From Squalus acanthias (lineage: Eukaryota): DNA of 64,000 bases. Shown here piece after piece: positions 9,143 through 52,682 of this stretch. Under the pieces are notes generated by a model, which worked only from the letters and a program-made list of their open reading frames with translations, was not told the DNA's origin and ran no database searches. Position numbers and translations under genes: made by a program. Every line of letters starts with the position of its first letter. Position 1 is the stretch's first letter. Location: NCBI GenBank assembly GCA_030390025.1, contig CM059432.1:85004001-85068000 (forward strand), read 5' to 3'.

Positions 9143-9385
9143 TCACAAGGGTAGTCACTTGGGTGTTTTCATCTGATACAAATGTTTGTCATCGTTATTA
9201 TTAATGTATTAAAGAAAAGCGATGGCAAAGATTCAAAGAGTTCGCCTATGTGTGCTCAGAAATGCAAGTTGCACAGTGAGGAGTCAGGGCACCTTTCATC
9301 GGTAATGATGGTGGTGAGAGTGATAGAAAACCACAGTTTATTGCATAGATGCTGTATGGTGTGTTAAGAAGGTCGGCCAGACATT

Positions 9386-15530: not shown

Positions 15531-17549
15531 CTCCCTCCCTCCTTTGTGCAGCCTAGTGCCGCAAGCCTACCCGCCCACAACCAGCCAGCCTCTCAATCTG
15601 ACTGGCTGCGGGCGGGAAACCGAGGCCTCGCATGCAAATCAGGCCCAGCTGTTAAAGTTGGCAGGGCCTGCGTGAAACCCGGCCTCCCGAATTTGTCGAC
15701 CATCTCGGAGCCACCCCCGCACCCCCATCCCCAACCTGCCCTCCTCCTTAAAATCCAGCCCAACCTCTCAGCTTCTACCCTGTCAAGCCCCCTCAGAATT
15801 TTACATGTTTCAATGAGATAAATGATATTTTGACATTGGGTACATTTGCAAAAGGAATCTCTTGTAGACAATAGGCTGGATTTTGTCAGTGTGGGCGGGC
15901 TGGAGCGTGTCAAGTGGAAATCGTGCCAGGACCCCGACTCCTAATTGAAGTGCTGAAAAAGTGGGATTTTCCCCTAATTGGCCAATTGATTTCCAGCGTG
16001 TGGGAACCCCTGGCCCAATGAGTCTTTTCAGACAGAAAGTCGCCTCCGATGACGTCATCAATGCTGCTGGATTTAAGGCCTGCAAGCAGCCTTGCTTCTT
16101 CTGGAGACTGCAAACTTTATGGCCATTGCTGTCTTTGCCTTCTTCATCAACTATGTCCAGCAGTCGGCCACAGTGTGCTCCACATTTCGATGAGCCCTCC
16201 CTCCAAGCTCTGGTGGAGGGAGCGAGATCCAGGAAGGAGGTGCTGTTCCCTTCCTCAGGGAGAAAAAAGCCACCCCAGCAGACAAAAGCTGTGTGGCTGC
16301 AAGTGGCCCAGGAGGTCAGCTCCATCTCGCTGAGCCGCAGAACCTGGCTGCAATGCAGGAAGAGGTTTCATAATCTTCTCCGAACAGGAAAAGTGAGTAT
16401 GACTTTCCCATCACCCTCAATCTGATCCCCATCGCCTCTCCTCACCAGCACTCTGCTTTGCCAACCTCTTCCTCCACATTCCACTTGACACTTACATGCC
16501 TGCACACTTACCCATTCCCTCTCTCTCTCAGGTCACATTCAGTTAACTATTCGACCATTCAGCCCTCACACTCCCTATCACTGTGATGCCATGACAACAA
16601 CAACTTTCAGCACACAGTGAGGGTCTTTTGTATCCTTCTAAGCATTTATGCTATGGATTCTCTACACTCAGTCCTTCATTCTCACTCAAACTCCACTTGT
16701 GTCCCTCATTGCAGGAAAAGAGAGCCCACAATAAGAGGGAAAGGGCGAGGACAGGAGGAGGGCCACCCTCAGTAGCCCAGCTCACCACTTCGGAGGAGGC
16801 GGCCCTGGAGATCGCCGGAGTGGAGGACGATTTGCAAGTGGGGGACGGACAGATGGGTGCATCGCAGCAAGCTGGTGACAGAATAGTTTGTCATCTCTCT
16901 CATTGACATTGCATGAGTCACTGATAATGATTCTGATGCTCTAATAGATTGACTTATGATCATCTGCAGTATTCATTGTGCATGTAACCTTGGCCTCACA
17001 TCTCTAACTCTTTCCTTTACTCCCCCACAGGAGCATCGAAAGCCCCCGTCCCCACTATCCAGGAGGAAGAGCCTGAGCAGACAGACTCCTCAGAGGAAGA
17101 TGCAACCTCTGAGGGTGCAGCGTCAGCAGAATTCAGAGCACCCAACACCAGCGCAGACACTCACACCTTGGTGGGACCTTCGGGAGATAGAGTAGTGTTG
17201 TCACCTGGTGTATCACAGCTCACAAGTGAGCATCAGAAGATGGTGGAGACAGGGACAGCAGTGGAGAGTCCTCGTCGGAGGGCGCAGGACTCTGCCAGCT
17301 CAGCTCAGCTGCATGTTGACCCTATGCCTCCGGGTCCATCTAGAAGGAGAGCGGTGCTTGAACTCCAGGAACAGGTGCAGGAGTCTCTGGCAGGTTTTGT
17401 CTCCAGGGTCGCTGCGAGTGTGGAGCGAATGGAGGAGTCCATCGCGAACATGAGCAGAGCCTTTGTGGAGGCATTGGCGCATGAACGCATCACCATAGAA
17501 AGGATGGCAACCTCCGTGGAAAGGATGTCTACAGTAGAGGAGAGGATGG

Positions 17550-19248
17550 TGTAAGGTTTCCAAAATTTGCAGATCCCCAAAACCTAAGGAAAAAGGACTT
17601 TAGAACTACCTCAGAGTGATAAAAATGCATTTGGGCCTAACCTAAGGAATATAAGACCAAAACCTGTGTTTTGGCATTTTAAAAAACATGTCTGGGCCTG
17701 TGAAGGGAGAAAAGGCTGTGAAGGAAGTTGGTATGACCTCTGTAAAAGCAGTTTTGGGTATTGCAGTTAATTGCATTGTCTGGGGAACCGGGATGACCTC
17801 ACTCAAAGCCCCAGCATGCATTAACATTTTGACAATAGACCCTAGGAGAAGACAGTCCCACCAAAAACAATAGGTCCCATCAAACCGATTACAGGGCCCA
17901 TCAGAAAACATGCATAATACAGAGCACCCAGGACTAGGCTATAGATCAGCCTAGGAACACAAAACACAAAACCAATCACCAGCAATCAGCCAAGGAGATT
18001 GACAGGATGCAAACCATCCCAAAACCCATTTGACACTTACAGAGCAGTTACTGGTAGCAGGCCCGCCAAATTCAGACAATGAACTGAACAGATTTGGCGG
18101 GTAGATAAGGCAATATTCAATGGGTCAGATTGAAGGCCTGTTAAAACCCAGTTAACGTGCTAGTAAATTGTTATCGAGCCCGCCAAAACTAGACAATGAA
18201 CTGAACAGATTTGGCGGGTAGATAAGGCCACTTTAATTCTGTATAATTGAAGGCCCACCAAGCACACCAAGCAAGCTAGAAGAGAGAGAAACACTACAGT
18301 TCAGCATTCGTTGGGTCAAGCAGTCAGTCGCAACTGGTGGTCATCAGAAGGAGGAGAGACCAAGAAGAAGAAGGCTCGAGCTGGAAGCGAGTCGGCATCG
18401 CTCACCACTCGGACACACCTGAGTCCAGCTCGCGAAGACACCACCTCGACAGACCCCCAACAATGGCCCCAACACAGTCACCCGGAGCAATAAGCAGCAA
18501 CAAGTCACCGACGGCTCCACGAGGTTGACCGACACACCAAACAAGGACTAAAGCCATCGCGGAAACCAAAGGCCTCACAAAACCAACAATCGCGCATTAC
18601 CCCCAACTGACCGGGTAATAGCAGGCCAACGCGACCAACAAAGACCAACTCCAGGGAAGAAAACCCGAAGAATCGCAAAGTTTCCACACTACAAACTACT
18701 CCTGACTTACCCCTGGGTAAGATTTTCCCCAAAGACTCTAAGCCCTACTGCTCAACTAAAGAAATTGGGTACTCACCAGATAAATCCGTAATGACATCCT
18801 ACCGCATCAGCGGACTCGCGAAGACTGACCAGAGACCCAGGTGAAGTCCTCTACCACGTATGGGGTACGGCAGACACTAACCGCCATAAACAGCGAACCC
18901 CAAAACTGCGATTTAGCCCAACTGTCAAAGGATTGGTGAGCATTATCCCTGGTCCATCAAAACCTAACTTAGCTAGTAAAGTGAGGTTGGGAGGGGTGAA
19001 GTATTGTTCTACTGTCATTTCCCTCGCTTGTACCGAAGTGTTCCCCACCTTTAGAGTGATAAGAGTTTTATTGTTTGTGTCTTACCTTTTAATAAAGATT
19101 GAAGTTCTTTCATCAAACTCAGTTGTCTGCAGCACCTTTTGTATCACAACCCCCAAATAAGTCCATGGTCTAGAACCAAGGGAGTGGAGGCGATTCGAAC
19201 CGCTCAGAAGTCAGAGGTAAAGCTGACACAAAAACACCACCCCCTACA
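17550..19248 (+). repeat. 5' LTR (1699 bp)
   Basis: TGTAAGG...CCCCTACA; direct repeat of 32726-34434; TATAAT at 18242; AATAAA at 19091. Confidence 0.97.
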
Positions 19249-19250
19249 TA

Positions 19251-21072
19251 ATGGCGACTGCGGCAGGACCTTGGCAAAAGGGATGTGATGCAGTGGACAC
19301 TGTTTTTGAAGAGAGAACCAAAATGGAGGAAAGGATTTCCTCCTATGTGTTCGAAAAGGTGAACATAACTAAGAAGTGGGTACTCAGTCTGCTACGTGCT
19401 GAACGTCCAATAGACGCTGCAGCTAAGTGGACTGAGAGCAAAGACCACAGGAAATCTGTGGAAAAGGCCATCTGGTTGATCTGTTCCCAGAAACAGATAC
19501 AACTATTGGATAAACGTGTAGAGACACTCAAAGCAGAACTGCAGGAGTCTGCTCAGCTGTCTCAAGCAAGAGCCCTAGCAGGGGAAACATTACTCAGTGA
19601 ACTAACAGCCCGAGATCAGGAAAGGAGGCTGTTAGTAGAAATGTACAGGAACAGTCAAGAGTATTTTCAGTGTCAGGTCACCGAAGCAAAAAGCAGTGAA
19701 CTAGTGTTGAGGGAAGAAAACACCTGCCTTGCTAGGCAAGTAAAGGAACTAGAAGAGAGGTTAAGAGATGTCCAGGCAGCTTACAAGGTAGCAAGCACAA
19801 GGGGGTATGAAGCGGGAGAGCACAGCCCCTGCCAGAAACAAATAGAAAGTTTGAACCTTGCTCTGTCCAGAGCCAAAGGCATGGTATGCCTGTTAAGCCC
19901 GGGTACGGCCTGAGTGGACCTGGAAGTGCAGGGGGAAACTGTTTGAACGCCACCTGTGGCATCGGGGAACGACTCGGTTGGGCAGCAGGAAGGAAGGGCG
20001 ATTTGTGAGGCTGGCAGGAAGTGCACACCAACTGTGGCGCCGGGTTTTGACTCGGTTTGGCAGCAGGCAGAGGTGGGCGAACCAATGCAGGAGAGGTTGG
20101 AGCCGGGGCCGATGTGCCCGGTCCGGCAGCAAAAGTTTGGCCCACTCAGCGGTGATGAGGGTCAAGGACCCCTCGAAAGCCAATTCGTGGCTCCCCACGG
20201 TACCCAACAGCTTAGGGCTATGATAAGCCACCTGAGTAAGCTCACTCAAAAAGAGGACCCCTCAGTCCACTTCATGGAAGTGGAACAGGCAGCAGGCATC
20301 AATGACTGTGATGATGCCGAGATGGCCAAAATGTTCCTGTTCTCACTGGACAGCAAAATCTATCAGTCCCTCTCCGCAGAGAGTAAAAGAGGGCAGGGTG
20401 GATATGCTGCCATCAGAGAGGGAGTTCTGGAGGCCATGGGAATGAATGATGGGAGTCCTTTCTCCAGGGTGGAGAAGACTACACAGCTAGTAGGGGAGAC
20501 CCCACAGGCTTTCGCAGACCGACTGTGGCCTGTGTACAGGAGTGCCTGTAATGGGGTTCTCGACAGGGCTCACCTGACTCAGGATGAGCTGGCCCACTGG
20601 CTCCGAAGTCTGGTGGCAAACAGCTTGCCATGGATCAGAGCCAAGGCCGAGCTGTGGTTTGACCCAAGGGACCCCCGGGGTACCGAAGAGACAGTGGTCA
20701 GACAACTGACCCTAGCTTACCGAAACGGTAGGGGGGTAGAAGAGCATCCTTCCAAGGGGAAGGTGCATGAGAAAAAACCCAGCCAGAGTAAGAAACAGTG
20801 GCACCAGGAAGGGGGTAACCCTTCCGACACGAAGCGTAACTGTTTCAGGTGCGGGAAGAGTGGGCATTGGAGGAAGGACTGCAGGAATCCATGGAAGGAT
20901 AACCTAGGAAAGAATTCTCCAGCCCCTGCCCCAAAAGTAGAAACCCCAACCTCTCCCCACACGTTAGACTCGGTCGTAGAAGCGATTCGAGCCTTGTTAA
21001 CTGGCCCAGGAAAGGTAGCCACAGCCACTGGGACAGTGACCCCCCTCTGCCCCACCAAACACAGACTTATGA
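19251..21072 (+). pseudogene. gag: Gag: N-terminal coiled coil, CA-like region, CCHC zinc knuckle; two in-frame TGA (19911, 19944) and a probable +1 frameshift near 21045
   Basis: ORFs 19251-19913 and 19956-21161 are in the same frame; CFRCGKSGHWRKDC knuckle; heptad-rich N-terminal half. Confidence 0.85.
19252..19269 (+). promoter_or_regulatory. Primer-binding site, tRNA-Arg(UCG)-like
   Basis: TGGCGACTGCGGCAGGAC, 3 nt after the LTR; 17/18 match to the complement of the vertebrate tRNA-Arg(TCG) 3' end as I recall it. Confidence 0.8.
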
Positions 21073-24000
21073 CTAGAGCCAGCGCAGCCTGTCTACCTGT
21101 GTCCCCTGGAGTACGACGCTTGGAAGAGGACCACTTGTTAGGATGGAGGTGGAAAAGTTGAAAGGGACTTATCTGTTATATACTGGAGCTTCCAGCACCA
21201 TAGTCTATTCAGAGAATCCCACAGCCTCACCTCTGTCTAACGGGGTCCCGTACAGTTTAGTGGGATTCACAGGTAACGAGCAGGCTGGCTCGTTCTCCAT
21301 CCCGCTGTCCATTCATTTAGGAACACTCCACACCAAGTGGACCTGTGTCCTGATGAAATGGGAGAAAGAGGGGACGGGGATCCTGGGGGCCGACTTTATC
21401 ACAGGCCACAGGATTTTAGTGGATCTAAGGAACCACTGTCTGTGGGGAGCATGTGTGGGTAGAGAGAGTGAAGTGTCAGTCATCCCAGGGAAACAGGGCA
21501 AGGGGACCTTGTGTACCCTAAAACCAAAGGAAGGTTACGACCTCGAGCAAATGGTCAGTAACACTCCGGTGGAGTACCAGGCATTTGTGCGAGCACACCT
21601 CGCAGCATTTGCCACTCACAAGCATGACTGTGGGAGGGTCAACGGGGTCGACGTTAGTGTCAGTGGAGACCCCATGACCCGACCACAGAAGCAGTATAAC
21701 TTCCTCAGGGAGGCGGAAGCAGACATGGAAGCAGCCATGGCTTCCTTAGTAAAGCAGGGAGTGCTGAGACCGATAGCCACCCATGTAAACTCCCCACTGT
21801 GGCCGGTTAGAAAACCGGACAACTCCTGGAGGGCCACAGTGGACTATCGGGTACTCAACCGTAACATCCCCGCCTGTGCACCCACGGTGGCAGCCGTTGC
21901 CGACCTCATTGGAAGTATCCCAGCATCTGCAACCACCTTCACTGTGCTGGACATTTCCAACGGGTTTTGGTCCATCCCTTTAAGAAGGGAGGACCAGTAC
22001 AAGTTCGCCTTCACGTTTAAATGCCAACAGTACACCTGGAACTGCCTACCCCAGGGTTTCCACAATAGCCCCAGCATTTTTCATCAATGCATGGCTAATT
22101 GTTTGAAGGGCTTCAGCCGGCCCCGGCAGTTGGTACAGTATGTGGATGACCTACTCCTGTTCACTGATGAAGGAGAGGAACACGGTACACTACTGGCTGA
22201 ACTGCTGGAGCTGCTCCGGCAAGAAGGCTTCAAGGTAAACCCTAAAAAGGTACAGATCGGCCAACAGGAAGTAAAATTCCTAGGGCTAACTGTGCACGCA
22301 GGGGAAAGGGCCATTGACAAAGCCAGAAGGGAAGCAGTGCAGGAGTTACCAGCCCCCAACACAGTCACAGGGGTAAGGTCTTTTCTAGGACTGACTGGGT
22401 ACTGCAGAGATTTTATTGAGGATTATGCAGCCACAGCAGCCCCTCTGCTCCGACTCCTACACAAGGGTGTAGAGTGGGCTTGGGACGAGGGTTGCGAGGC
22501 AGCATTTGTAAGGCTCAAAAAGGATCTGCAGACCGCACCAGCTCTAGGGGCTATTGATGGGGAGAGAGAGTTTTTCCTGGAGGTGGCAGCCAGCGGGGAC
22601 AGTCTGAGTGCTGTGCTGCTCCAAGAGAGGCACGACGGGCTGAGACCAGTGGTCTACACCTCCAGGATACTCACTGATGTGGAGAAGGGCTACTCCAACT
22701 GTGAGAGGCACCTCCTCGCCACTCACTGGGCTGTGAAAAGATCATTGATCTTCACAGGCACATCTCCCATCACCCTGCTCACCCATCACACGCCCACCCA
22801 GATGCTCCTAGATGGGAGAATCAAAGATGGGACAGTGAGCAGTGCCCTTATTGCCCGCTGGACCCTACTTCTCTCCCAGATGGACCTAAGGGTAAAAGGG
22901 CTCTGCGAGCCGAGGCTCGCAGCCAACCTAATTTACCCAGGGAACGCCCACCGGTGTTCCATAGAAGGGGTATGGGAAGTTAACAGAGGTTTTCGGGCCG
23001 GGATACACCCCACAGGCCGTGAAATCTATGTGGACGGTTCGAGCACAGTATCTGCTGGAGAACGACTCACAGGGTGTGGAGTTTATGACCCAGAGGCGGA
23101 CATTGCCTTGGCCATTAAACTCCCCAGCACCATGAGCGCCCAGCAGGCCGAACTGTCTGCGGTGGTGTATGTAGTTACACACCCCGAGAAGTTCCCTACC
23201 CCATACACGATTTGCTCAGACAGCATGTTCACATGCAATTCGTGTACGGAGTACCTGGCCATCTGGTCCCGTCGCGGATACACCTCCGCTGATGGGAGAC
23301 CCCTCACCATAAAGCCTCTGTTGGAGAGAATCATGGCAGCAGTGGGGGAGGAAGGGAAGGTCTTCATCCATAAGGTAAAGGCCCACTCTAAGAAAGAGCC
23401 CAAGTGGGAAAACAACCACAAGGCAGATGAGCTGGCCAAAAAGGGGGCCAGAGAAGGGATATTCTGGGACCCGTAGCAAGCGGGTCCAGTAGCAGCAGTT
23501 CGGGCCAGGGGAAGCACACAGGGTGTAGCTTTGGCCCCGGACTTAAAACAGGCCCAAACCCAGAACACAGTCCTCAAGACTGTCCTGAACAGGCTTGAAA
23601 AAGGGGAGAAAGTAGAGGGCCCGTACGGCACAGCAGCCATCACTGTAAAGGAAGGCATGCTGTTCAGAGGGGAGCAATGGGTAGTGCCGCAGCAGCACTG
23701 AAGGGAATTCCTCCAACTGGCCCATGAGGGTCCAGGAGCGGGGCATCCCGGACCTGAGACCACCTGGCAATGGGTGGAACAGACAGGATGGTGGCCAGGA
23801 CTCAGGGAAGATGTCCGCGAGTTCTGTGCAGGCTGCCTAGTGTGTGTTGCTAACAACCCAGACCCCCAGAAAAGGAAGGTGTCTATGGGACACATCAGGA
23901 GGGTAGAGGGACCATGGCAGTCGATCCAGGTCGACTACATCGGGCCCCTACCCACCGTCCAGGGAGGCTTTAAGTACTGCCTAGTCCTGGTGGATGTGTT

Positions 24001-25186
24001 CTCCAAGTGGGTAGAAGCATTCCCATGCCGTACGGCTACTGCATTGGGTACGGCTAGGATCCTAGTCAGGGAAGTGTTCTCACGGTGGGGACTACCACAG
24101 TATGTGGAGTCCGACCAGGGGAGTCATTTTACTGGGCAGGTTATGCAAGAGACCCTCAGGGTGCTCGGCATAGAGGGGAAATGGCACGTAGCCCACAACT
24201 CGCAGTCATCGGGTCCTGTGGAGCGTTTAAACCGTACCATTAAGGAAAGGCTAAGGAAGGAAATGGGAGACTCACCCAAAAAGTGGGTAGAACTCTTACC
24301 GTTGGTCCTAATGGAGATCCGAGCCAGCCAGTCAAAAAGCACGGGGTATTCCCCACACGAGCTCATGAATGGCAGAGTTATTTGGACCCCCACCCATGTG
24401 CTAGCCCCGGTGCTCAAGGAAGGGCAGCTCAGAGAGGTGAACCGGGACAGATTCGTCAGGAATCTGTTGGACCACCTTAAACAGGTCCTCTGGCAGGCTG
24501 CGAGTAACATGGGAAAACAGCATCGGAGTAACCGATTGCTGCTCCAACCCCGCAAGCAGCACGAGTGGGAGATAGGGGATCAGGTCATGGTTAGAAATTT
24601 TGCCCGGGTAGGGAGTTTCGAACGACTGTACATGGGGCCCTACCACATTGTGGACAAGGCAAGCCCCATGGTCTATGCCATAAAGATGCCCCGCCGTACA
24701 AAGTGGTTTCACATCAACCAATGCAAGCTGTTTAAACCCGAGAAAAGGGAACAGTCAGCAAAGGTGGACCACCCCAAAGTTAGAAATCCCCAGCCAGCAG
24801 CTGTGGCAGACTCACAGACTGCAGCGGTGGGGACAGTGGCTTGTATCACAGGAGGGTACACTCCACCGATTATGTGGGACTCAGGCACAGCCCCAGTGGC
24901 CAGAGTCCTGAGAAGGTCTCCTCGCACACCACAGCCTAAACTGCCGTGGTCACCGGTACATCAGTGGGTCAGCCCAAAGGGGGCTGCAACCCAAAAGGGA
25001 GTGCCCAAGGCCAGGGAGCGTTCAAAAGTTAGGGATCCCCAGCTTGCAGCCTCAGGCTGCAAGGAATCCACAGGACAGGACAGGACAGGGACTCAGCAGC
25101 CACACCAAAGGGGGCAGTGTGCTGTAGCACAGGAGGGGACACTCCCGGGATTGTCAGGGATTCAGGGAAACCCTCAGTTGTTTTAA
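21073..25186 (+). pseudogene. pol: Pol: protease, RT, degenerate RNase H tether, RNase HI, integrase
   Basis: LLYTGAS (mutated DTG), LDISNGFW, LPQGFHNSP, YVDD, YVDGS/AELSA/SDS/NHKAD, HHCC, DYIG/SDQG/VERLN, GPY; in-frame stops at 23474 and about 23699. Confidence 0.95.
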
Positions 25187-27567
25187 GAAGGACTCTCAGG
25201 GTCCTGCGGGAAAGGCCACCTTACCGGCTGCTCAGAAGCTGCCCAAGGCAGAGGCCATACAGGATTTGACCTGGCCGTCCAGAGACGGGCGGCGTATGTA
25301 CAGGGTTTTAGTGAATGTTAGGTGTTTTACAGTTTTGGTAGTTTTAGGATTTTTAAGGATTCTAGTTTTAAGGATTTTAGTGAGTAAGTTTAAAAGTTCT
25401 CAAGAATCGATCACCTGTCCAGCCAGAGAACCTTCTCGGGACATGGCTGTCTGTTTTGTGTGTCCCTACAGAGAGGAAATCGGCATGAGAAGGGTTCTGC
25501 TCCTGCTCGCCCTGGTAGGGGTGAGCATCGGTGACCGAGGTGACGTGGAGGACTCCCACATCTATGGATGCTCGGGAGAGAGAGGACCGGTCGTCACCAC
25601 AGGGGGTGGCGAACGGGGAGTGGAGGAGCTCGCCATCTACTTCCACGAGGGAAGGTGGCCAGGGTGGCTGGGGTCCAACTCTACTAAATACTCCAGCCAG
25701 ACCGGGTTCACGTACGGGGAGGCCTCCCTCCCATGCCCCAGAGTACAGGTCGTTGCCACGAGGGTCAGTGTCACCGAGGGGAAGCGTGTGTGCCTTACCT
25801 GTAAAGGACAAATTCCCCTGAATAGGTGGTGGTGGCTCAGGAAGCTGAGCAGGGACGCAGGGGACCATACAGCCGACTGGGAAAGATTAGGGAACGACAC
25901 CTACCGGACAATCACAGGGACCCAAGGGGGAGTGAGTGTGTGTTGGGATAAGTGGTGGGAGTCAGAACAGGGAGTCTATGTTTGTATGTGGAGGTCAGAG
26001 AAAGCCTGCTCCACAGGCATATCCATCATCTTCTCCAGACAATGGCAAGATGCCGGGGAGGGATGGGGTGGGATTCTAGCCTACATGTGTGCGTGCTCCC
26101 ACACTCCCCGACCCCAGTCAACGCCACCGAACTAGTAGCCTGCCCCCGAAAGCCCCTGCCCACGACCACGACTTCACGGACAGTAGAGGAGAGGTGTCCT
26201 ACCACCACCAAGGGACCAGAGAATGGACTAGTACTAGTACCGACCGAAAAGGTACTATACCAGGGGGTACACTATGCAGTAGCTTCAGTAATATTAAACC
26301 TTACCGAGGTACACTTACCTAAATGGTGTCCTAAGGAGACAGAACAGCTATACCAGGCCCTGCTAAAGGAAATGTTTAGAAAATTCTATGAATTCGACTT
26401 TGCCAACGTGGACAAAGCAGAGCTGTACAAACTACATGCAGAGCACACTATGGGCGCAGGGAGACAAAGAAGGGGGACCTGGAACGATATTTTCACAACA
26501 TATAATACAGGATCCTCAGTAATAAATAGCCTAGATGACATAGAGCTACAAACACAGATAAATGGTTTAAAAACCCAGTTGAGAAAGATCCTAACGGATG
26601 GGAACACAGTGGTAGGCTCAGAGCTACATGAGGACCAAGCTATGACGGTCCATCTAAAAGAGATTATGGCTGAGCTAGAGAGACACGCTAAAACAGTGAA
26701 TGCCCTCATACGGGAAGATAGGAATGCTTCAGATCAGGCTGCACAGAATGAGGTGTGTGTGCTATACGGGGCATGGTTGCTGGGCGAGGGCCGCAGCAAC
26801 CTGGAAGATTTAAAACAAGGTTTAGTCCCCTCCTGGATTAGCAACAAACACCTCTCAGCCCTCCACCCGTTCAGCAATTCACTGAGCCCATGTCAGCTCC
26901 GCCTAGCCTCTGAAGCCTACCCAGTCACATTAGATTGTGAACGTTCCAATCACTCTATCATGGGGATAGTAGTGAGGATGCCGGTCATGGGTGGGACAGC
27001 CCGACCCGCACCGGTATACAGGGTGGAGAACATTGGGATCATTCAAGGGGGTGCACACGTCCATTTCGCAGAGGTCCCACCTTATGTCATAAAGTGGGAG
27101 CACGCTATGACAGGTACTGACCTCTCCGGGTGCCGGAGCCAGGGTTCACACATAATACTGAGTCCCCAGCACTTGAACGCCTACTCTAGACCACAGTGCG
27201 GGTTTAAAGATGCTGGCGCACGACCTATCAACTGTACCATGGAGGTAATGGCACAAGGTCATGTTCCCCCACAGGTAGCATTCATAGGGGATGGGACATA
27301 TTGTGTCACCACAAGTGCGCCCCACTACCAGCATGGACAGCATTTCTGGTGTCCGGTGAGTGACAGCAGTTTCTGCTTTAAACCCAAGGCAGAAGTTCAA
27401 GTAGCCCAGGAACGGATTGTCCCCATTCCTGAACCCTCAACTGTTCACCTCACTGGAAGGGAAAACATTACCAACCTGCAAAACTATGTCACCTTCTTCG
27501 GCTATAAGATTCCTCCTCTACCCGAACACCTTACCGTCTTACTAAAAGCTGTACAGGTATCACAGAA

Positions 27568-30500
27568 ACATAGAAACATAGAAGATAGGAGCAGGAGTAG
27601 GCCATTCGGCCCCTCGAGCCTGCTCCACCATTCGATGAGATCATGGCTGATCATCCAAACTCAGTACCCTGTACCTGCCTTCTCCCCATATCCCTTGATA
27701 CCTTTAGCTTTAAGAAATATATCTAACTCATTCTTGAATATATTTAATGACTTGGCCTCAACTACCTTCTGTGGTAGAGAATTCCATAGGTTCACCACTC
27801 TCTCGGTGAAGAAATTCTTCCTCATTTCTGTCCTAAATGGCTTACCCCTTATCCTTAGATTATGACCCCTGGTTCTGGACACTCCGACCATCGGGAACAT
27901 TCTTCCTGTATCTAGTTTGTCCAGACCTGTCAGAATTTTATATGTTTCGATGAGATCCCCTCTCATTCTTCTATACTCCAGCGAGTATAAGCCCAATCGA
28001 CCCAATCTCTCTTCATATGTCATTCCTGCCATCCCAGGTATCAGCCTTGTGAATCTTCGCTGAACTCCTTCCATGGCAAGAACATCCTTCCTCAGATAAG
28101 GCGACCAAAACTGCACACAGTACTCAAGGTGTGGTCTCACCAAGGCCCTGTACAACTGCAGCAGGACATCCCTGTTCCTATACTCAAACCCTTTTGCTAT
28201 GAAGGCCAACATACCATTTGCCTTCTTCACCGCCTGCTGCACCTGCATGCTTACCTTCAGCGACTGGTGCACAACGACACCCAGGTCTTGTCGCACTTCC
28301 CCTTCTCCCATATCAGATAATAGTCTGCCTTTCTGTTTTTGACACCAAAGTGAATAACCTCACATTTATCCACGTTATATTGCATCTGCCACGCTTCTGC
28401 CCAATCACCCAACCTGTCCAAATCATCCTGGAGTTTCTCGGTATCCTTCTCGCAGCACACACGCCCACCCAGCTTTGTGTCATCTGCAAACTTGGAGATA
28501 TTACATTTAGTTCCCTTATCTAGATCATAAATGTATATTGTGAATAGCTGGGGTCCAAGGACCGATCCCTGCGGTACCCCACTACTCACTGCCTGCCACT
28601 CGGAAAAAGACCCATTAATTCCTACACTCTGCTTTCTGTCCGCCAACCAGTTCTCTATCCAAGTCAATACCTTGCCCCCAATCCCATGTGCCTTAACTTT
28701 ACACGCTAATCTCTTATGCGGAGCCTAATCGAAAGCCTTTTGAAAGTTCAAATACACCACATCTACTGGTTCTCCCTTATCTATTTTCCCAGTTACATCC
28801 TCAAAAAATTCCAGTGGATTAGTCAAGCACGATTTACCTTTTGTAAATCCATGTTGACTTTGTCCAATCCTGTCACTGTTTTTCAAGTGCTCAGCTATTA
28901 CATCCTTTATAATGGACTCTAGCATTTTCCCCACTACCAATGTCAGGCTTACCGGTCTGTAATTCCCCGCTTTCTCTCTACCACCCTTTTTGAATAGTGG
29001 GGTAACATTAGCTACCCTCCAATCCATGGGTACAGTTCCGGATTCCATCGAATGTTGGAAGATGATCAGCAATGCATCTACTATTTCTAGGGCCACTTTC
29101 TTACGTACCCTAGGATGTAGATTATCAGGCCCTGGGGATTTATCGGCCTTCAATCCCGTCAATTTCCCGAACACCATTTCCCTGCAAATACTGATTTCTT
29201 TCAGTTCCTCCCTTTCATCAGACCGTATGTTCTCCAACATCTCTGGGAGGTTATTTGTGTCCTCCTTTGTGAAGACAGAACCAAAATATGCATTTAATTG
29301 GTCTGCCATTTCTTTGGTCCCCTAAATAACTTACACCGCTTCTGACTGCAAGGGACCTACACTTGATTTCACTAATCTTTTTCTCTTCACATATCTATAA
29401 AAGCTCTTACAGTCAGTTTTTATGTTCCCTGCAAGCTTACTTTCATATTCTATTTTCCCCTTCTTAATTAATCCCTTTGTCCTCCTATGTTGAATCCTAA
29501 ACTGCTCCCAATCCTCAGGGTTACCGTTTTTTCTGGCCAATTTATATGCCCTCTCCTTGGATCTTATGCTATCCCTAATTTCCCTTGTTAGCCACGGTTG
29601 AGTCACCCTTTTTGTTTTATTCTTATGCCAAACTGGGATGAACAAATTCTGTAGTTCATCCATGCAGTCTTTGAATGTTTGCCATTGCCTATCCACCATC
29701 AACCCTTTGAGTGACATTCCCCAATCAATCCTACCCAATTCGCGCCTCATACCATCGTAGTTTCCTTTATTTAAATTCAGGACCCTAGTCTCTGATTCAA
29801 CTACTGCACTCTCCATCCTAATGAAGAATTCTATCATATTATGATCACTCTGACCCAAGGGGCCTCGTACAACAAGATTGCTAATTAATCCTTTCTCATT
29901 ACATAATACCCAGTCTAAGATGGTCTGATCTCTGGTTGGTTCCTCAAGATATTGTTCCAGAAAACCATCCCGTAAACATTCTAGGAATTCCTCCTCCACA
30001 GTATTTTTACTAATTTGGTTCGCCCAATCTATATGTAAATTAAAGTCACCCATGATGACTGCTGTGCCCTTACTGCATGCTTCTCTAATTTCCCTTTTAA
30101 TGCCGTCCCCAACCTCTGTATTACTGTTTGGAGGTCTATATACCACTCCCACTAACATTTTCTGCCCCTTGTTATTTCTCAGTTCTACCCATACAGATTC
30201 TGCATCATCAGAGCTAATATCCTTCCTTTCAATTGTGTTAATCCCCTCTTTAACCAGCAATGCTACTCCACCTCCTTTCTTTTTTGCCTATCTTTCCTAA
30301 AAATTGAATACCCCTGGATGTTGAGTTCCCAGCCTTGGCCACCCTGGAGCCATGTTTCTGTAATCCCAATCAAATCGTATTCATTTACCTCTATTTGCGC
30401 AGTTAATTCATCCACCTTGTTCCGAATGCTCATTGCATTAAGACACAAAGGGGGAAAAATTCAGTATCGCCCCGTTTGGGGCGCAATTATCGGCTGGGCG

Positions 30501-32164
30501 CAAAGATTAGCACCTGGCGCTAATTATCGCCTCCAACTGCAAACTTGACTTTTATCGCCCCTGGAGGTGATTGGAGCGCTAAATCAGGCGCTATACACAT
30601 GTCTTAAGGCGCAAAGGCCGAGGAGCGAGGCGGTAACTCACAGCGCTGGCAAAGCTCATGTGATGTCAGTCAGCAATGGAACAGAGACACAATGGCCCCA
30701 GCCAGTTCTTAAAGGGGAGGGTTAATCTTGCTTTCCATCCACATCCTGCTCATTGCAGCCTTGAATCTCGGCCTGGAGAGACCTGTACATCAAATCTGCT
30801 GGAAATAACAATGGAGAGGCCCAGGGAAAGAGCTCAGAGTGCAGCCCCAACAATCTCTTCTAAATCGATACAAGGAAGGGCAAATCAAAATGAACCTGCA
30901 AAGTGCTGCTCAGTACCCAAAACTCCTTCACACAGCGTTGAATCTCTCCAGAAGTCTCTCTCTCTCTCTCTCAGAATGCGTGGTTCAAAAATGTCGCCAA
31001 CAAAAAAAGGCAGGAAGCGGTCGCCTTTAAATAGCGCTCCCCCAGTCCCTTCCTGACTGCAATACGCTCCCCTCAACCTGTCGTTGCTAGCGGCAGGCGG
31101 TAAGGTAGGGGGTGCCACTCAATATCCGTTCAGGGGCGCTACTGGGGCGTTGCGCACTCGACTGACGTCACGATCTGCCAGCGCAGGAGATCGTGGCGGT
31201 ACTGTTTAGCGCCGCTGCAAAATGTCTAGTTAATTTCGCGAGCAACGCAAATATCGCCGCGCCCGGGCGCTAGTTGCTTTGCGCCCCATTAGCGCCCTCT
31301 TAAGGCGCTAACGGGAGGCGCAACCAATTGAATTTTCCCCCCAAAGCCTTCAGGCTTGTTTTTTTAATGCTCTCAGACCTATATGAATTATTATTTACTG
31401 TGACCATGTTTGATTTAAACCGTTGAGTTCTTTGCCTTCTACTTTTGTTTTTCTCCTTCCTGTCTTTTGCTTTTATCCTTGTTTCACTTTCCTCTTTCTC
31501 CCTGCTCAGGTTCCCAACCCCCTGCCACTTTAGTTTAAACCCTCCCCAACAGCACTAGCAAACACTCCCCCTAGGACCTCGGTCCCGGCCCTGCCTAGGT
31601 GCAGACCGTCCCGTTTGTACTGGTCCCACCTCCCCCAGAACTGGTTCCAATGTCCAAGGAATTTGAATCCCTTCCCCCTTGCACCATTCCTCTAGCCACG
31701 TATTCATTTGAAATATCCTCCTATTTCTACTCTGACTAGCACGTGGCACTGGTAGCAATCCTGAGATTACTACCTTTGAGGTCCTATTTTTTAATTTACC
31801 TCCTAACTCCCTATATTCTGCTTTTAGGACCTCATCCCGTTTTTTACCTATATCGTTGATGCCTATGTGCACCACGACAACTGGCTGTTCGCCCTCCCCC
31901 TCCAAAATGTTCTGTAGCCGCTCCGAGACATTCTTGACCTTTGCACCAGGGAGGCAACACACCATCCTGGAGTCTCGTTTGCGGCCGCAGAAACGCCTAT
32001 CTACTCCCCTTACAATTGAGTCCCCTATCACTATAGCTCTTCCACACTTTCTCCTCCCAGCCTGTGCAGCAGAGCCACCCATGGTGCCAGGAAGTTGGCT
32101 GCTGCTGCCTTCCCCTGATAAGTCATCTCCCCCAACAGTATCCAAAGTGGTATATCTGTTTGAG
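27568..32164 (-). mobile_element. Near full-length CR1 LINE (partial SGNH-esterase ORF1 plus APE-RT ORF2) inserted in env
   Basis: IVIGDSIVRG; ITETWL, VYRPP, MGDFN, SDHN; KFADDTK; AGAAACAT tail; AGAA TSD (27564-27567, 32165-32168). Confidence 0.95.
30450..31342. mobile_element. Harbinger-type MITE (893 bp) inside the CR1
   Basis: TIR GGGGGAAAAATTCA; AAA TSD; close inverted copy at 51793-52682. Confidence 0.9.
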
Positions 32165-32716
32165 AGAAGCATTTCTACACCCTAGAACAAAAGACACTCG
32201 AGATAGGGGCTGAGATTTCGGCCATCACGGTTCCACCCTGGTGGGACATTTTTGAAAACATAGAGGTTCCTTCTTGGATTAGGATGGCCTCCCACATCTT
32301 AGTGGTTTGCCAGCTCGGGATAGTCTTGTACTTACTGTGTACAAAATGCAAGGGGAAGGACAGAATGCTCCATTCCCGGCATGAGAAAGCCTGGGAAAAA
32401 CATTACAATAAAGTTTACCAAGTATAAAAGAAGCCTGAATCGATTCTAAAAATAAAGAAGTTTTGTGACCGTGTGTTATTTTCTTTCTATGTATGTATTT
32501 TGGTTTTTTTTCAAGTAGTGTAGGGGTGTTGGACCCCCTCCATGCTTGGATGTGTATCTTTTATGGATTCTTACCTGTATGTATTGGAACACTACACCAA
32601 AAAAAGGGAATGTATGTTTTTGGGTTTTAGTTTAGGTAATACAGGGGAAGGTTGGTTTTTCAAGGATCAGGAATTTTGTCCACCCAGAACGATACTGTAG
32701 TGAATTAAAGTATCGC

Positions 32717-32725
32717 AGGAGGGAC
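32717..32725 (+). promoter_or_regulatory. Short polypurine tract
   Basis: AGGAGGGAC directly before the 3' LTR. Confidence 0.6.
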
Positions 32726-34434
32726 TGTAAGGTTTCCAAAATTTGCAGATCCCCAAAACCTAAGGAAAAAGGACTTTGGAACTACCTCAGAGTGATAAAA
32801 ATGCATTTGGGCCTAACCTAAGGAATATAAGACCAAAACCCGTGTTTTGGCATTTTAAAAAACATGTCTGGGCCTGTGAAGGGAGAAAAGGCTGTGAAGG
32901 AAGTTGGGTTGACCTCTGTAAAAGGAGTTTTGGGTATTGCAGTTAATTGCATTGTCTGGGGAACCGGGGTGACCTCACTCAAAGCCCCAGGAAGCATTAA
33001 CATTTTGACAATAGACCCTAGGAGAAGACAGTCCCACCCAAAACAATAGGTCCCATCAAACCGATTACAGGGCCCATCAAGAAACAAGCATAATACAGAG
33101 CACCCAGGACTAGGCTATAGATCAGCCTAGGAACCCAAAACACAAAACCAATCACCAGCAATCAGTCAAGGAGATCGACAGGATGCAAACCATCCCAAAA
33201 CCCATTTGACACTTACAGAGCAGTTACTGGTAGCAGGCCCGCCAAATTCAGACAATGAACTGAACAGATTTGGTGGGTAGATAAGGCCATATTCAATGGG
33301 TCAGATTGAAGGCCTGTTAAAACCCAGTTAACATGCGAGTAAATCGTTATCGATTTACGAGCCCGCCAAAACTAGACAATGAACTGAACAGATTTGGCGG
33401 GTAGATAAGGCCACTTTAATTCTGTATAATTGAAGGCCCACCAAGCACACACCAAGCAAACTAGAAGAGAGAGAAACACTACAGTTCAGCGTTCGCTGGG
33501 TCGAGCAGTCAGTCGCAACCGGTGGTCATCAGAAGGAGGAGAGACCAAGAAGAAGAAGGCCCGAGCTGGAAGCGAGTCGGCATCGCTCACCACTCGGACA
33601 CACCTGAGTCCAGCTCACGAAGACACCACCTCGACGGACCCCCAACAACGGCCCCAACACAGTCACCCGGAGCAACAAGCAGCAACAAGTCACCGACGGC
33701 TCCACGAGGTCGACCGACACACCAAACAAGGCCTAAAGCCATCGCGGAAACCAAAGGCCTCACGAAACCAACAACCGCGCATTACCCCCAACTGACCGGG
33801 TAATAGCAGGCCACTGCAACCAACAAAGACCAACTCCAGGGAAGAAAACCCGAAGAATCACAAAGTTTCCACACTACAAACTACTCCTGACTTACCCCTG
33901 GGTAAGATTTTCGCCCAAAGACTCTAAGCCCTACTGCTCAACTAAAGAAATTGGGTACTCACCAGATAAATCCATAATGACATCCTACCGCATCAGCGGA
34001 CTCGCGAAGACTGACCAGAGACCCAGGTGAAGTCCTCTACCGTGTACGGGGTACGGCAGACACTAACCGCCATAAACAGCGAACCCCAAAACCGCGATTT
34101 AGCCCAACTGTCAAAGGATTGGTGAGCATTATCCCTGGTCCTTCAAAGCCTAACTTAGCTAGTAAAGTGGGGTTGGGAGGGGTGAAGTATTGTTCCACTG
34201 TCATTTCCCTCGCTTGTACCGAAGTGTTCCCCACCTTGAGAGTGATAAGACTGTTATTGTTTTTGACTTACCTTTTAATAAAGATTGAAGTTCTTTCATC
34301 AAACTCAGTTGTCTGCTGCACCTTTTGTATCACAACCCCCAAATAAGTCCAAGGTCTAGAACCAAGGGAGTGGGAGCGATTCGAACCGCTCAGAAGTCAG
34401 AGGTAAAGCTGACACAAAAACAGCACCCCCTACA
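32726..34434 (+). repeat. 3' LTR (1709 bp)
   Basis: Direct repeat of the 5' LTR; about 12 differences in the first ~370 bp by eye. Confidence 0.97.
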
Positions 34435-37400
34435 ATGGCTACGGCCATGGAGGAACTAAGTCGCCAGAGTGCAGAAAACATGGTCATTGTTTAGAATAGA
34501 CTGGCATCTCTTGAGGAGCGATGGTCAGCTATTGAGCATAGAAACCAGACCTTCATGGAAGTCCTCTGGAGTAGGACTTCCAGTGCAGAAACGGGTCCTC
34601 ATGGTCCCCCTGCAGTGCAGCAAGGTGCTGCCCAGCCACTTGCTAGCTCTGAAGTGGGACTGACCCATGAGAGGGATGTTGGTGGCATACAACAAGGAAG
34701 TGGGGGCTCCTCTCCAAGCACTCACATGACCATTCCACTGCAGAGCTCTCGGTCAGAGCCCCACCAGAGTCCCCACTCAACTGAGATCGGCGTCTCAACC
34801 ACTGCACAGCCGCAGGAGCAGCAGACTGTTGCCAAGCCCTCACAGGTTCACAACCCCAGAGGACGCCAGCCAAAGGTGTCGAGACAGGAGCAGCAAGAAA
34901 GTGAGCAAGGGGCTTCCACATCTGCTGAAGCCACAGGGGAAGCACCACGTAGGAGCACGCGTAAGAGGAAGATAATGCACAAGTAGTCATAAGGGTTGTC
35001 GCTTGGGTGTAATGTTGTGTTTAATTTTGAAAAGCCCTCAGTTGCTTATTGTCATAAAAAATTCTGATGGCAAACTGTTGCAGTTGTGGCGTGTGTCATT
35101 TCGCTAATGGGACTTCCACATTGAGGGCTTAGGGTGACTTGCAATTGTCAGTATGGTGGTCAGAGTGAGAGGAATCCGTAGATTTTTGTCCATTGTTGAT
35201 GCACTGGTAAGTAGGTGCGAGGCTAAACTGTTTGATTGTGCAGGCTAAGCAAATGTGACCAACATGAGTGCATCCCTTGCATCCCGGGCAGCAATATGCT
35301 GGCGCTCTGGCACCTTCTGGCCTGTGCATCTTCAGGTGGGTGACTAGCAGCTTGGCGCTCTTATTGATGTTCCTGCTGTTGGTGCTGCTGTTGCTCATGG
35401 TTCTGCTGCTGCGCAGCTGGTCTTCATCCGAATCTGATGTCGAGGAGGAAAGGAATTAAATGGTCGCCATGCTTCTGGTATATGCCTCAGTTGAGGAAGC
35501 GCTTAGTCAAGGTGGGGAGAAGGGATTCCAAGGAGGTCACACCGGAGATGGGTGTCAGGCTCCAAACTTCCACAACACTGAGTATGCCTGCTAAATGTTC
35601 CCCCAGACCTGAAGCAACAAAGTTCTGCCACCTGCAAATGATCATCGGTGAAAACTCCTTTGTAATGGTGGAGCTGCAACTGTTCGCAAGCAATCCACTA
35701 GTGAGGCCGCCAGGATTACCTGGCGTGTTCCAGAGGAGGCATGTAGGATGGGGGAAATGTGTTAAAATGGGAAAGGCCTCTCAAAATGGGATTATAGAGG
35801 CAATTAAGTGGTTGTTAAGGACCTTAAGGGCCTATCCCGGCTCTTGGAGGCGGGATGGAAAGCGGGTCAGAAAACACGCACTTGGGAAAATTGCTCGGAG
35901 GCGGGATGGAGGCGGGAACGGGCCCGTCTGCCAGTTTTGCCGATTTTAACAATTCGCACGCCTCCAAACCCGCCTCCTCGGGGCTGGGAAAATCGAGCCC
36001 AATGAGTTTAATATAGTGGGATTTAAATTGTTCTAAAAACTGTATTAATGCAATACGAGCATTGTAGTAAGGAAAAAGAGTTACAAACAAGTAGATTTAA
36101 CGTAGAAAGTATGGACTTCCAAGCCAGTTCCAGTGGTGAACCGAGCAAGGGACATTGCTTAAAGGACGAGCACTTCAGTGAACTCCCCAAAATGTCTGTC
36201 AGTACGAGGTACTTTTGAAGAAATATAACAAGAGACCTTGGGCCAGGAGGTTTAAGAAGATATTGAACATATTTACAGGACTTGCTACAACTCAATGCAG
36301 CATGACGTATCACCTACTAGAGCCTGGGCGAGGAATAGTATATAGGGACTATGTACCACGACGGTGCTGTGATCTCAAAACTGTCAGCACCTAGACCCAA
36401 GATGTTGCAGCTCTGAAGTAATGTCTAGACAGCACTCTCAGTGGAAGTGAAAGTGACCACTGCATTAATTATCTGTGCTACTGACTACTTTCAAGCACCA
36501 ACAAGGGACATCACTTGGATCAGCCAGTAACTAATTTTGGTGCAATTACCAAAGCAAGTGGCATATTTGGCTGTATACCTAGATTAATAAAAATATGTCT
36601 AATCAAATTATACTGAAACAATAAAGTATTGGTAAAACTACAATTGAAATATTAAATCTTTATCACTATACTTTTGAAAATATAGTAGCAGTAGAAAGGA
36701 ATGAAAGAAGGAAAATAAAGATAATTTTATGTTTTGGATCACTGAACACTTAAATCATTCGCATTGGAGAAAAAAGTTAAAGAGGGAGCACAAAGTCAGA
36801 GAATTACCCTATTGCTAACTCACAGTGCCACAGTCCCCACTTTATTAATTACCTTTGTAGTTTTCAGGAAAAAAACAATAAAAGGATATGAAAGGTGATT
36901 CCGTAATCCCACACTACCAGTGTAAAGCCACACTTACAGCAAACGTAGATCTGAGATTCAAAGCTACACGTTGTAAGAAATCGTGAATTGGAAGAAATTG
37001 TGAATTATAAGAAATAATGGCTTTATAAAACAAATAAGCTCAATTGAGCTGAGCAGCCAGGATAAGCTGCTGATACAGAAAAATTCCAATCACGCCAGAT
37101 AGGGAGTTGTACAAAGAGCTGAGGTTGTTGCAAGGTCATAACATACAGGTGCATATTCCCCCGTAAATGGACAATTGAATGTGTAAAAGTGATTATAACA
37201 AGTGATTGACGTGAGGTATCTACCAGCCCCGAAAGTAAGGTATATAAACGGGCAGCCAAGAGGGAAAGGCGGGCAGAAAGGGGGGCTAGCTTCCCTGGGG
37301 TGGATGCATGCTAGCTTCGACTTAACACCCTGGTCAAGTTTAACCTCTGAGGTGGATTCCATGCTAGCTTCGGCTTAACACCTCCGCCAGCTCGGGAGAC

Positions 37401-51600: not shown

Positions 51601-51792
51601 TTTAATTCCCAGTCTTGATTTTTCTGTAGCCATGTCTCAGTAATCCCTACTATGTCTGTTTCCTCGCAACGCATGATTGCCTCCAGCTCCCCTTTTATTA
51701 CGGACACTGTGTGCATTGCTGTACGGACAGATTAATTCATTTTTAATAGCAGTTCCTCTCACTTTATTTTTAACCATCTTTTTAAACTCTTG

Positions 51793-52682
51793 GGGGGAAA
51801 AATTCAGTTGGTTGCGCCTCCCGTTAGTGCCTTAAGAGGGCGCTAATGGGGCGCGAAGCAACTAGCACCCGGGTGCAGCGATGTTTGCGCCGCTCACGAA
51901 ATTAACTAGACATTTTGCGGCGGCGCTAAACAGTACCGCCACGATCCCCTGCGCCGGCAGATCGTGACGTCAGTCGAGTGCGCAACGCCCCGGTAGCGCC
52001 CCGGAGCGGATATTGAGTGGCGCCCCCTGCAGTACCGCCTGCCGCTAGCAACGACAGGTTGAGGGGAGCGTTTTGCAGTCAGGAAGGGGCTGGCCGGAGC
52101 GCTATTTAAAGGTGACCACTTCCTGCCTTTTTTTGTTGGCGACATTTTTGAACCATGAATTCTGAGAGAGAGAGAGACTTCTGGAGAGATTCAACACTGT
52201 GTGAAGGAGTTTTGGGTACTGAGCAGCACTTTGCAGGTTCATTTTGATTTGCCCTTCCTTGTATCGATTTAGAAGAGACTGTGGGGGCTGCACTCTGAGC
52301 TCTTTCCCTGGTACTCTCCATTGTTATTTCCAGCAGATTTGATGTACAGGTCTCTCCAGGCCGAGATTCAAGGCTGCAATGAGCAGGATGTGGATGGAAA
52401 GCAAGATCAACCCTCCCCTTTAAGAACTGGCCGGGGCCATTGTGTCTGTGTTCCATTGCTGACTGACATCACATGAGCTTCGCCAGCGCTCTGAGTTAGC
52501 GCCTCACTCCTCAGCCTTTGCGCCTTAAGACAGATGTGTAGTGCCTGATTTAGCGCTCCAATCACCTCCAGGGGCGATAAAAGTCAAGTTTGCAGTCAGA
52601 GGCGTTAATTAGCGCCAGGCGCTAATCTTTGCGCCCGGCCGATAATTGTGCCCCAAACGGGGCGATACTGAATTTTTCTCCC
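51793..52682. mobile_element. MITE, inverted copy of 30450-31342
   Basis: Colinear reverse-complement similarity; TTG/CTG flanks. Confidence 0.9.

What the first reader, a model, noticed from the sequence alone, without database searches (positions are those of the whole stretch)
17550..34434. Complete lokiretrovirus-like provirus with dual RNase H and a non-orthoretroviral fusion protein
Seen: pol has a degenerate RNase H tether (FFLEVAAS...RPVVYTSR...ERHLLA) followed by a second RNase HI with its acidic residues, then integrase with GPY. Gag has a long coiled coil. Env has RQRR, heptads, a long Cys-rich block and a TM, and I see no CX6CC or immunosuppressive motif. Known: lokiretroviruses are a sister lineage of other retroviruses whose Env resembles Mononegavirales fusion glycoproteins. 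Inference: this is a chondrichthyan member, repairable with about ten changes. LTR divergence of roughly 3% by eye suggests moderate age.
Basis: partly seen in the sequence, partly recalled or inferred. Interest (0 to 1): 0.75.

Follow-up and report, generated by a model that had tools for sequence, protein, structure and literature searches.

The report
Shark retrovirus with F-type envelope
This is a broken copy of a multi-copy retrovirus in a shark-type genome; its polymerase groups with ordinary retroviruses rather than lokiretroviruses, but its envelope is predicted to fold like measles/RSV-type fusion proteins and likely carries an antibody-like domain at its tip, so this kind of entry protein is probably more widespread among aquatic retroviruses than assumed.

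Summary
The provirus is real. It has LTRs at 17550-19248 and 32726-34434 (K2P 0.036), a 4-bp target duplication, a tRNA-Arg primer site, and gag, pol with tether plus RNase H, and env. It is defective, and a 4.6-kb CR1 LINE splits env.

It is not a lokiretrovirus. RT falls among canonical retroviruses (100/98-99), and an RT+tether tree joining it to Loki is rejected (AU p=0.0016; RT alone p=0.078). It carries PQG where all 24 published Loki RTs carry PFG. It lies in the unresolved SnRV-like/class III grade; its nearest named kin are frog and coelacanth ERVs.

Neither dual RNase H nor an F fold is Loki-specific: the SnRV anchor has the tether, and foamy and walleye-virus Envs also hit the model.

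The scan reported the same reading twice before, on other copies in this genome.

The parts
17546..17549 (.). Left target-site duplication ATGG (4 bp)
   Evidence: 4-bp duplications also visible in other copies
17550..19248 (+). 5' LTR, TG...CA, AATAAA at 19091
19252..19269 (+). Primer-binding site, 17 of 18 bases complementary to host tRNA-Arg(TCG); the first gag ATG (19251) overlaps it
   Evidence: overlap also in 9 of 9 sister copies with a PBS match
19251..21161 (+). gag: helical N-terminal part, capsid region (fold not tested), CCHC knuckle about 20838-20885; in-frame stops at 19911 and 19944
21077..25186 (+). pol frame (different frame from gag in this copy): protease with degenerate motif, RT about 21686-22486, tether about 22481-22879, RNase H about 23021-23449, integrase about 23705-24727; in-frame stops at 23474 and 23699
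25485..26135 (+). env N-terminal part: signal peptide and likely Ig-like domain (25731-26000); out of frame with the F core in this copy
   Evidence: in the F frame in 18 of 30 loci
26195..27565 (+). env F-type core: RQRR site 26462-26473, amphipathic putative fusion peptide, heptad helices, Cys-rich beta domains
27564..32166 (-). 5'-truncated CR1-type LINE inserted into env (esterase ORF1 end, endonuclease, RT, short-repeat 3' tail)
32167..32427 (+). env C-terminal part: membrane-proximal segment, TM about 32284-32340, short tail
32717..32724 (+). Short purine-rich tract before the 3' LTR (putative PPT)
32726..34434 (+). 3' LTR
34435..34438 (.). Right target-site duplication ATGG

Best explanation
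This is a defective endogenous copy of a shark-type retrovirus whose RT lies among canonical retroviruses in the SnRV-like/class III grade, and whose Env is predicted to be a paramyxo/pneumovirus-F-type fusion protein with a likely Ig-like receptor-binding domain at its N-terminus. Shown: the provirus layout, the 4-bp target duplication, the tRNA-Arg primer site, RT outside Loki, foamy-like, gamma/epsilon and ERV-L-like clades, and a family of at least 150 env-bearing copies. Predicted: the F fold and the Ig-like fold. Inferred: the virus entered cells by furin cleavage at RQRR and class I refolding of the F core; the N-terminal domain bound receptor; the family spread by reinfection, because env was under purifying selection; this copy later decayed and took a CR1 insertion in env. 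A sister subfamily integrated much more recently.
For: RT trees: Loki 100/99-100 as its own clade, and the canonical clade holding the window 100/98-99. AU p=0.0016. RT identity 50-54% to frog, coelacanth and unnamed relatives, 44% to the SnRV anchor P0093, 34-40% to Loki-type rows. PQG versus PFG in 24 of 24 published Loki RTs. Env model pLDDT 67: Foldseek RSV F E 1.5e-11, hPIV3 F 3.2e-11; VIA NDV F Z 12.6 (rmsd 17.9, 342 aligned), foamy Env Z 8.4 (rmsd 5.5, 262 aligned). Atlas hits Baculo_F/Gypsy Env 0.95 and Fusion_gly 0.92, at low recognition. Ig-like domain: Pfam Ig_3 E 0.001-0.006, below cut-off; Atlas Ig clusters 0.93; beta-sandwich model. N-terminal domain and F core in one protein in skate P0017, and an Ig-type domain joined to a kindred RT in the Xenopus gene model P0002. 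Copy number: 150 of 150 scored matches at 90% identity or more. dN/dS about 0.08 for the F core, 0.15 for the N-terminal domain and 0.13-0.16 against the sister subfamily.
Against: The window does not group with the SnRV anchor with support in any tree; the base of the canonical clade is a polytomy, so 'SnRV-like' names a grade. With RT alone the Loki union is not rejected (p=0.078). The integrase is more similar to Loki-type rows (38-44%) than to SnRV (36%), carries the Tf2/p58-type C-terminal domain seen in a Loki-type Pol, and Loki integrases group with its frog and coelacanth relatives (95/91). Reference rows are labelled by motif match to the published alignment, not by name; no Odin, lentivirus, alpha/beta or named foamy RT was in the trees, and the model was LG+G4 without a mixture. 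The Ig model is low-confidence (mean pLDDT 44; best Z 6.7 to a phage protein, Ig chains 5.0-5.7; no Foldseek hit at E<=0.001). The post-cleavage 22 residues are not hydrophobic (mean KD -0.43). The close-copy dN/dS values are biased low, because those copies were picked as best protein matches.
Confidence: 0.85

Rival explanations
1. It is a true lokiretrovirus, the first from cartilaginous fish.
For: F-type Env, dual RNase H, no CX6CC, Loki-like integrase; the RT-only AU test does not reject; 0 of 6 chondrichthyan genomes had Loki in the original screen, so one would be new.
Against: Three RT trees and the RT+tether AU test; PQG versus PFG motif; protease-to-YxDD spacing about 320 aa versus about 700 aa in three Loki-type Pols; RNase H outside the Loki RH clade; the one Loki Env read (Loki-Xtr) starts its F core right after the signal peptide.
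Confidence: 0.04
2. It is a recombinant or a retained intermediate: a canonical-type RT/RH half with an integrase-env half that shares ancestry with lokiretroviruses.
For: Integrase tree places Loki with this element's frog and coelacanth relatives (95/91) and excludes the window from the SnRV+ERV-L+gamma/epsilon clade (96/91); same integrase C-terminal domain type as a Loki-type Pol; by eye the F core starts with a similar GP-x-[SN]-G motif in Loki-Xtr Env and in this family.
Against: The window's own integrase is unresolved in that tree; integrase trees are known to be unreliable (PMC9040795); no Loki Env was recognised among the env search hits that were read. This reading is compatible with the best explanation rather than exclusive of it.
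Confidence: 0.3
3. It is a foamy-related or epsilon-related ERV, the other fish retrovirus groups with F-like Env.
For: Foamy Env and WEHV-1/WDSV Env hit the model; MLV and foamy RTs are the best PDB sequence hits.
Against: Four foamy-like RTs from this genome form their own clade (100/100) and gamma/epsilon rows form another (100/99), both without the window.
Confidence: 0.04
4. It is an env-carrying Ty3/Gypsy element (errantivirus-like), not a retrovirus.
For: Atlas ranks Baculo_F/Gypsy Env clusters first for the env; Tf2-type SH3 integrase tail.
Against: RT lies inside the retrovirus clade, separated from Gypsy rows by starred branches; tether plus second RNase H.
Confidence: 0.02

Closest known systems
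SnRV-like ERVs / clade Huo (snakehead retrovirus; CmiERV lineage I of elephant shark, PMC4422223; PMC6001957)
   Same: RT motifs shared with SnRV in the published alignment (LDISNGFWSI, QQYTW..LPQGFH); tether plus RNase H; aquatic and chondrichthyan hosts already known for the group; tRNA-Arg primer (SnRV's use of tRNA-Arg is recalled, not from a call).
   Different: No supported sister grouping with SnRV; integrase tail is Tf2/p58-type rather than MLVIN_C; only 298 bp lie between the env stop and the 3' LTR, with no room there for a SnRV-type 205-codon 3'ORF; short cytoplasmic tail. SnRV's own Env fold was not tested.
Lokiretroviruses (PMC7947760)
   Same: gag-pol-env between LTRs, dual RNase H, Env related to Mononegavirales F with signal peptide, furin site, coiled coil and TM; similar integrase.
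   Different: RT clade and motifs, shorter protease-RT spacer, extra N-terminal Ig-like domain in Env, CCHC knuckle (absent in the one Loki Gag end read), host class.
Foamy virus Env (PDB 8rm0/8rm1; PMC11468914)
   Same: F-like core shared with paramyxo/pneumovirus F.
   Different: Foamy RBD is a large insertion inside SU with a membrane-anchored leader peptide; here a separate small N-terminal domain precedes the core; RT is not foamy.
IgV-like receptor-binding domains of gamma-type and alpha-like Env (bioRxiv 10.1101/2024.03.17.585361)
   Same: An N-terminal Ig-fold module ahead of a Pro/Thr-rich linker, apparently swappable between lineages.
   Different: Those sit on orthoretroviral (CXXC/CX6CC-type) Env; here the module sits on an F-type core.

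Membership tests
Lokiretroviruses | RT falls in the Loki clade, sister to canonical retroviruses | tested here: not met
   AU p=0.0016 with RT+tether, p=0.078 with RT alone; Loki rows labelled by motif identity to Dataset S2
Lokiretroviruses | RT motif B of PFG type (24 of 24 published RTs) | tested here: not met
   window LPQGF
Lokiretroviruses | Dual RNase H (tether + RH) | tested here: met
   not diagnostic, since the SnRV anchor has it too
Lokiretroviruses | Env similar to Mononegavirales F with signal peptide, furin site, coiled coil, TM | tested here: met
   fold level only; no Pfam PF00523 hit in 25 alignment members
Lokiretroviruses | Integrase of the Loki/CGIN1 group | tested here: inconclusive
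   unresolved, near Loki; no CGIN1 row in the tree
SnRV-like / class III (clade Huo) | RT among canonical retroviruses and outside gamma/epsilon, foamy and Loki | tested here: met
SnRV-like / class III (clade Huo) | RT forms a supported clade with SnRV | tested here: inconclusive
   polytomy; not grouped
SnRV-like / class III (clade Huo) | Env of the same type as SnRV Env | not testable with these tools
   no SnRV Env sequence was obtained
Spumaretrovirinae-like ERVs | RT in the foamy clade | tested here: not met
   with four foamy-like RTs from this genome found by PF03539; no named foamy RT
Epsilon/gamma (class I) ERVs | RT in the gamma/epsilon clade | tested here: not met
Ty3/Gypsy errantiviruses | RT in Metaviridae, single RNase H | tested here: not met

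The most novel reading that the evidence does not exclude
An unnamed, recently active retrovirus lineage of sharks and rays, with kin in frogs and coelacanth, sits near the base of canonical retroviruses and keeps a Loki-like integrase and an F-type Env. Together with Loki, foamy and walleye-virus Envs, this would make the F-type fusogen the ancestral retroviral envelope and orthoretroviral Env a later replacement, with Ig-like receptor-binding modules captured or swapped repeatedly onto the F core.
Probability: 0.3. Interest if true: 0.8.

Novelty: new variant of a known kind. Interest (0 to 1): 0.5.

Why it matters
The Loki and Odin papers treat an F-like Env as a lokiretrovirus trait and leave four scenarios open for the origin of retroviral Env. 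A canonical-type RT joined to an F-type Env, in a family with at least 150 copies and very young members, shows that the trait is not confined to Loki. It adds a data point for an old, shared F-type Env. It is also a practical warning: dual RNase H plus F-like Env is not enough to call a lokiretrovirus. The variable N-terminal module (at least four mutually unalignable versions on the same core) is a natural case of receptor-domain swapping on an F protein. This copy itself is a dead fossil, and SnRV-like shark ERVs are already known.

Tried and rejected
Sequence searches did not reveal the F relationship: Pfam gave nothing relevant for the env core or 24 relatives, and PDB sequence searches gave only noise with a single query or the profile. 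The IMG/VR scan for RT relatives gave one irrelevant 51-residue match. A search of this genome with a Loki-type Pol found only this element's own lineage at 34-35% identity in the 6 loci examined of 32 matches; the search used a stricter first look, so it does not show that Loki is absent. No RNA holder is on record for the env stretch; runs guessed to be RNA hold related contigs but show nothing about expression. The RNase H tree was poorly resolved at its base, with unsettled bootstrap. The gag-pol translation strategy is unresolved: of 19 other copies, 7 could be scored, 4 in one frame with a single TGA between and 3 out of frame. The dN/dS comparison of the N-terminal domain with the sister subfamily returned no alignments long enough, and RT dS was saturated. 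Literature: searches found no paper describing an F-type Env with an N-terminal Ig domain in SnRV-like ERVs. Calcraft et al. 2024 (Cell) is not held, the original SnRV sequence paper was not seen, and bioRxiv supplements are closed, so prior description cannot be excluded.
Full report
Observation. The LTRs run 17550-19248 and 32726-34434, begin TG and end CA, and differ at 60 of 1717 aligned columns (K2P 0.036; 21 of 36 transitions at CpG). ATGG is duplicated on both sides. With the two rates used in PMC4422223, this gives about 8 to 80 million years, so the age is poorly constrained. The PBS at 19252-19269 matches 17 of 18 bases of a host tRNA that ARAGORN calls Arg(TCG). Gag carries a CCHC knuckle. 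Pol has RT, tether, RNase H and integrase with an SH3-type tail. The copy is defective: two in-frame stops in gag and two in pol, gag and pol in different frames, a degenerate protease motif, a frame break inside env, and a 4.6-kb CR1-type LINE between the env core and its TM segment.

Host and family. The best named env relatives are from a sawshark (63-79%) and a skate (66%), with more distant ones in Mustelus, Chiloscyllium, Heterodontus, Pelodytes and Xenopus. A chondrichthyan host is therefore inferred. A 200-residue env query gave 150 of 150 scored matches at 90% identity or more, from 7554 candidates. Of 19 other copies fetched, 13 gave LTR-region alignments over 300 nt. Twelve lie at K2P 0.009-0.043; one at 0.18 has no similarity to the LTR. 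A sister subfamily is much younger: 9 of 10 copies gave LTR pairs at 0-0.0056. Env shows purifying selection: mean dN 0.019 against dS 0.237 for the F core (29 copies), 0.046 against 0.302 for the N-terminal domain (22 copies), and dN/dS 0.13-0.16 against 9 sister copies. The first two values are biased low by how the copies were chosen. Spread by reinfection is inferred from this.

RT placement. No named references could be loaded, so rows from the protein search were labelled by motif identity to the RT alignment in the supplement of PMC7947760. P0093 matches SnRV at three motifs; the PFG-type rows match Loki. All 24 published Loki RTs have PFG at motif B; the window, SnRV, foamy and gamma/epsilon RTs have PQG. 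Trees of 64, 47 and 49 rows (LG+G4; subsets of the 127 RT rows extracted, near-duplicates left out) agree. Loki is its own clade (100/99-100). The window lies in the canonical clade (100/98-99), outside gamma/epsilon, ERV-L-like and four foamy-like RTs from this genome. Forcing the window into Loki is rejected with RT+tether (p=0.0016) but not with RT alone (p=0.078). The protease-to-YxDD distance is about 320 residues here and in near relatives, and about 700 in three Loki-type Pols. Against a neat SnRV label: the base of the canonical clade is a polytomy and the window never pairs with SnRV; its nearest named rows are coelacanth and frog ERVs (50-53%). The integrase is unresolved but closer to Loki-type rows (38-44%) than to SnRV (36%), and Loki integrases join those frog and coelacanth relatives (95/91). 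The RNase H tree is unresolved at its base but keeps Loki separate.

Env. A model of 26132-27565 from a 25-row alignment (pLDDT 67, pTM 0.50) matches RSV F (E 1.5e-11), hPIV3 F and other paramyxo/pneumovirus F proteins by Foldseek. By VIA the best 16 rows are all F proteins or foamy Env (NDV F Z 12.6, rmsd 17.9, 342 aligned; foamy Env Z 8.4, rmsd 5.5, 262 aligned), above unrelated coiled coils at Z under 6. Predicted viral structures add lispi/arlivirus glycoproteins, baculovirus F, a fish filovirus glycoprotein and the Envs of WEHV-1, WDSV and feline foamy virus. The Atlas ranks Baculo_F/Gypsy Env slightly above Fusion_gly, at low recognition. The F-type call is therefore sound but not Loki-specific; passages of PMC11468914 report the same core in foamy Env.

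N-terminal domain. Upstream of the core, env has a signal peptide (25485) and a domain at 25731-26000. The evidence for an Ig fold is Pfam Ig_3 at E 0.001-0.006, below cut-off, Ig clusters at 0.93 in the Atlas, and a low-confidence beta-sandwich model whose matches are mostly Ig chains at Z 5.0-5.7. It lies in the F frame in 18 of 30 loci (some loci are duplicates of each other), in skate P0017, and on single contigs of two other runs. A Xenopus gene model joins a kindred RT to an Ig-type domain 40% identical to that of a frog F-type Env. N-terminal domains of different relatives do not align with each other. A receptor-binding role is inferred by analogy with the IgV-like RBDs in bioRxiv 10.1101/2024.03.17.585361 (passages). 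The one Loki Env read lacks such a domain.

Comparison with what is known. Papers seen: PMC7947760 (main text parts 1-3 of 4; supplement parts 8, 67, 68, 69 and two term searches): Loki in 0 of 6 chondrichthyan genomes, and Env origin left open among four scenarios. PMC9040795 (parts 1-2 of 4). PMC4422223 (part 1 of 2): an SnRV-clustering ERV lineage in elephant shark. Passages only: PMC6001957 (clade Huo in all major vertebrate lineages), PMC4977317, PMC10435555, PMC11468914, PMC12583693, PMC13709493, PMC11521997, PMC12193657, and bioRxiv 10.1101/2023.10.26.564294 and 10.1101/2024.03.17.585361. Nine searches showed no description of this RT-Env combination, but a key paper was not held and SnRV's own Env was not tested. 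Two earlier scan reports on other copies in this genome reached the same reading; my reading was recorded before seeing them, and they are not independent support.

Verdict. The feature is real and accurately located. The Env interpretation is right and the family assignment is wrong. It works like a Loki or foamy virus at entry (predicted) but is not a Loki member. It is a new variant of a known kind: an SnRV-grade shark ERV with an F-type Env and a likely Ig-like tip, in a lineage with very recent insertions. Interest 0.5.

Noticed in passing
G000, genome-wide: A sister subfamily (RT 87-92% identical to the window's in 6 loci examined) is very young. Of 26 full-span pol matches, 24 have no stop. 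Of 10 copies dated, 9 gave LTR pairs with K2P 0-0.0056, 3 of them with no substitution in aligned columns; 9 of 10 retain the env 3' end including the TM.
   Followed up: partly
window 19249-19269: The first gag ATG overlaps the primer-binding site two bases after the LTR, leaving no leader between PBS and gag. The same overlap is in 9 of 9 sister copies with a PBS match and 7 of 10 loci.
   Followed up: partly
BFVD hits: Walleye epidermal hyperplasia virus 1 Env (E 1.9e-8), walleye dermal sarcoma virus Env (E 1.7e-4) and the glycoprotein of a fish filovirus (Wenling thamnaconus virus, E 1.2e-12) match the F-type model.
   Followed up: no
P0017, P0024, P0026, P0031, P0036, P0043: Relatives share the F core but carry N-terminal domains that do not align across groups (window/skate type, frog type, Mustelus/Pristiophorus Cys-rich type, Chiloscyllium type), which suggests module swapping.
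   Followed up: partly
window 15949-17549 and 34435-35010; paralog near 7739-9166: The provirus interrupts a Myb/SANT-domain ORF (PF13873), probably of a Harbinger-type transposon (inferred); an uninterrupted paralog lies 9 kb upstream.
   Followed up: partly
window 30450-31346 and 51789-52682: A 0.9-kb stretch inside the LINE has a 92-95% identical inverted copy 21 kb away; possibly a nested insertion.
   Followed up: no
L088-L095: The genome also holds a foamy-like ERV family (49 matches to PF03539; RT motifs LPQGFQNSP, YVDDIY).
   Followed up: partly
G000:C26, about 39.0-41.9 Mb: Long tandem arrays with a 1.62-kb period carry a tRNA-Arg-like 3' end.
   Followed up: no
window 18058-18267 and 33234-33450: Each LTR holds a roughly 93-bp internal direct repeat, possibly an enhancer duplication.
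   Followed up: no
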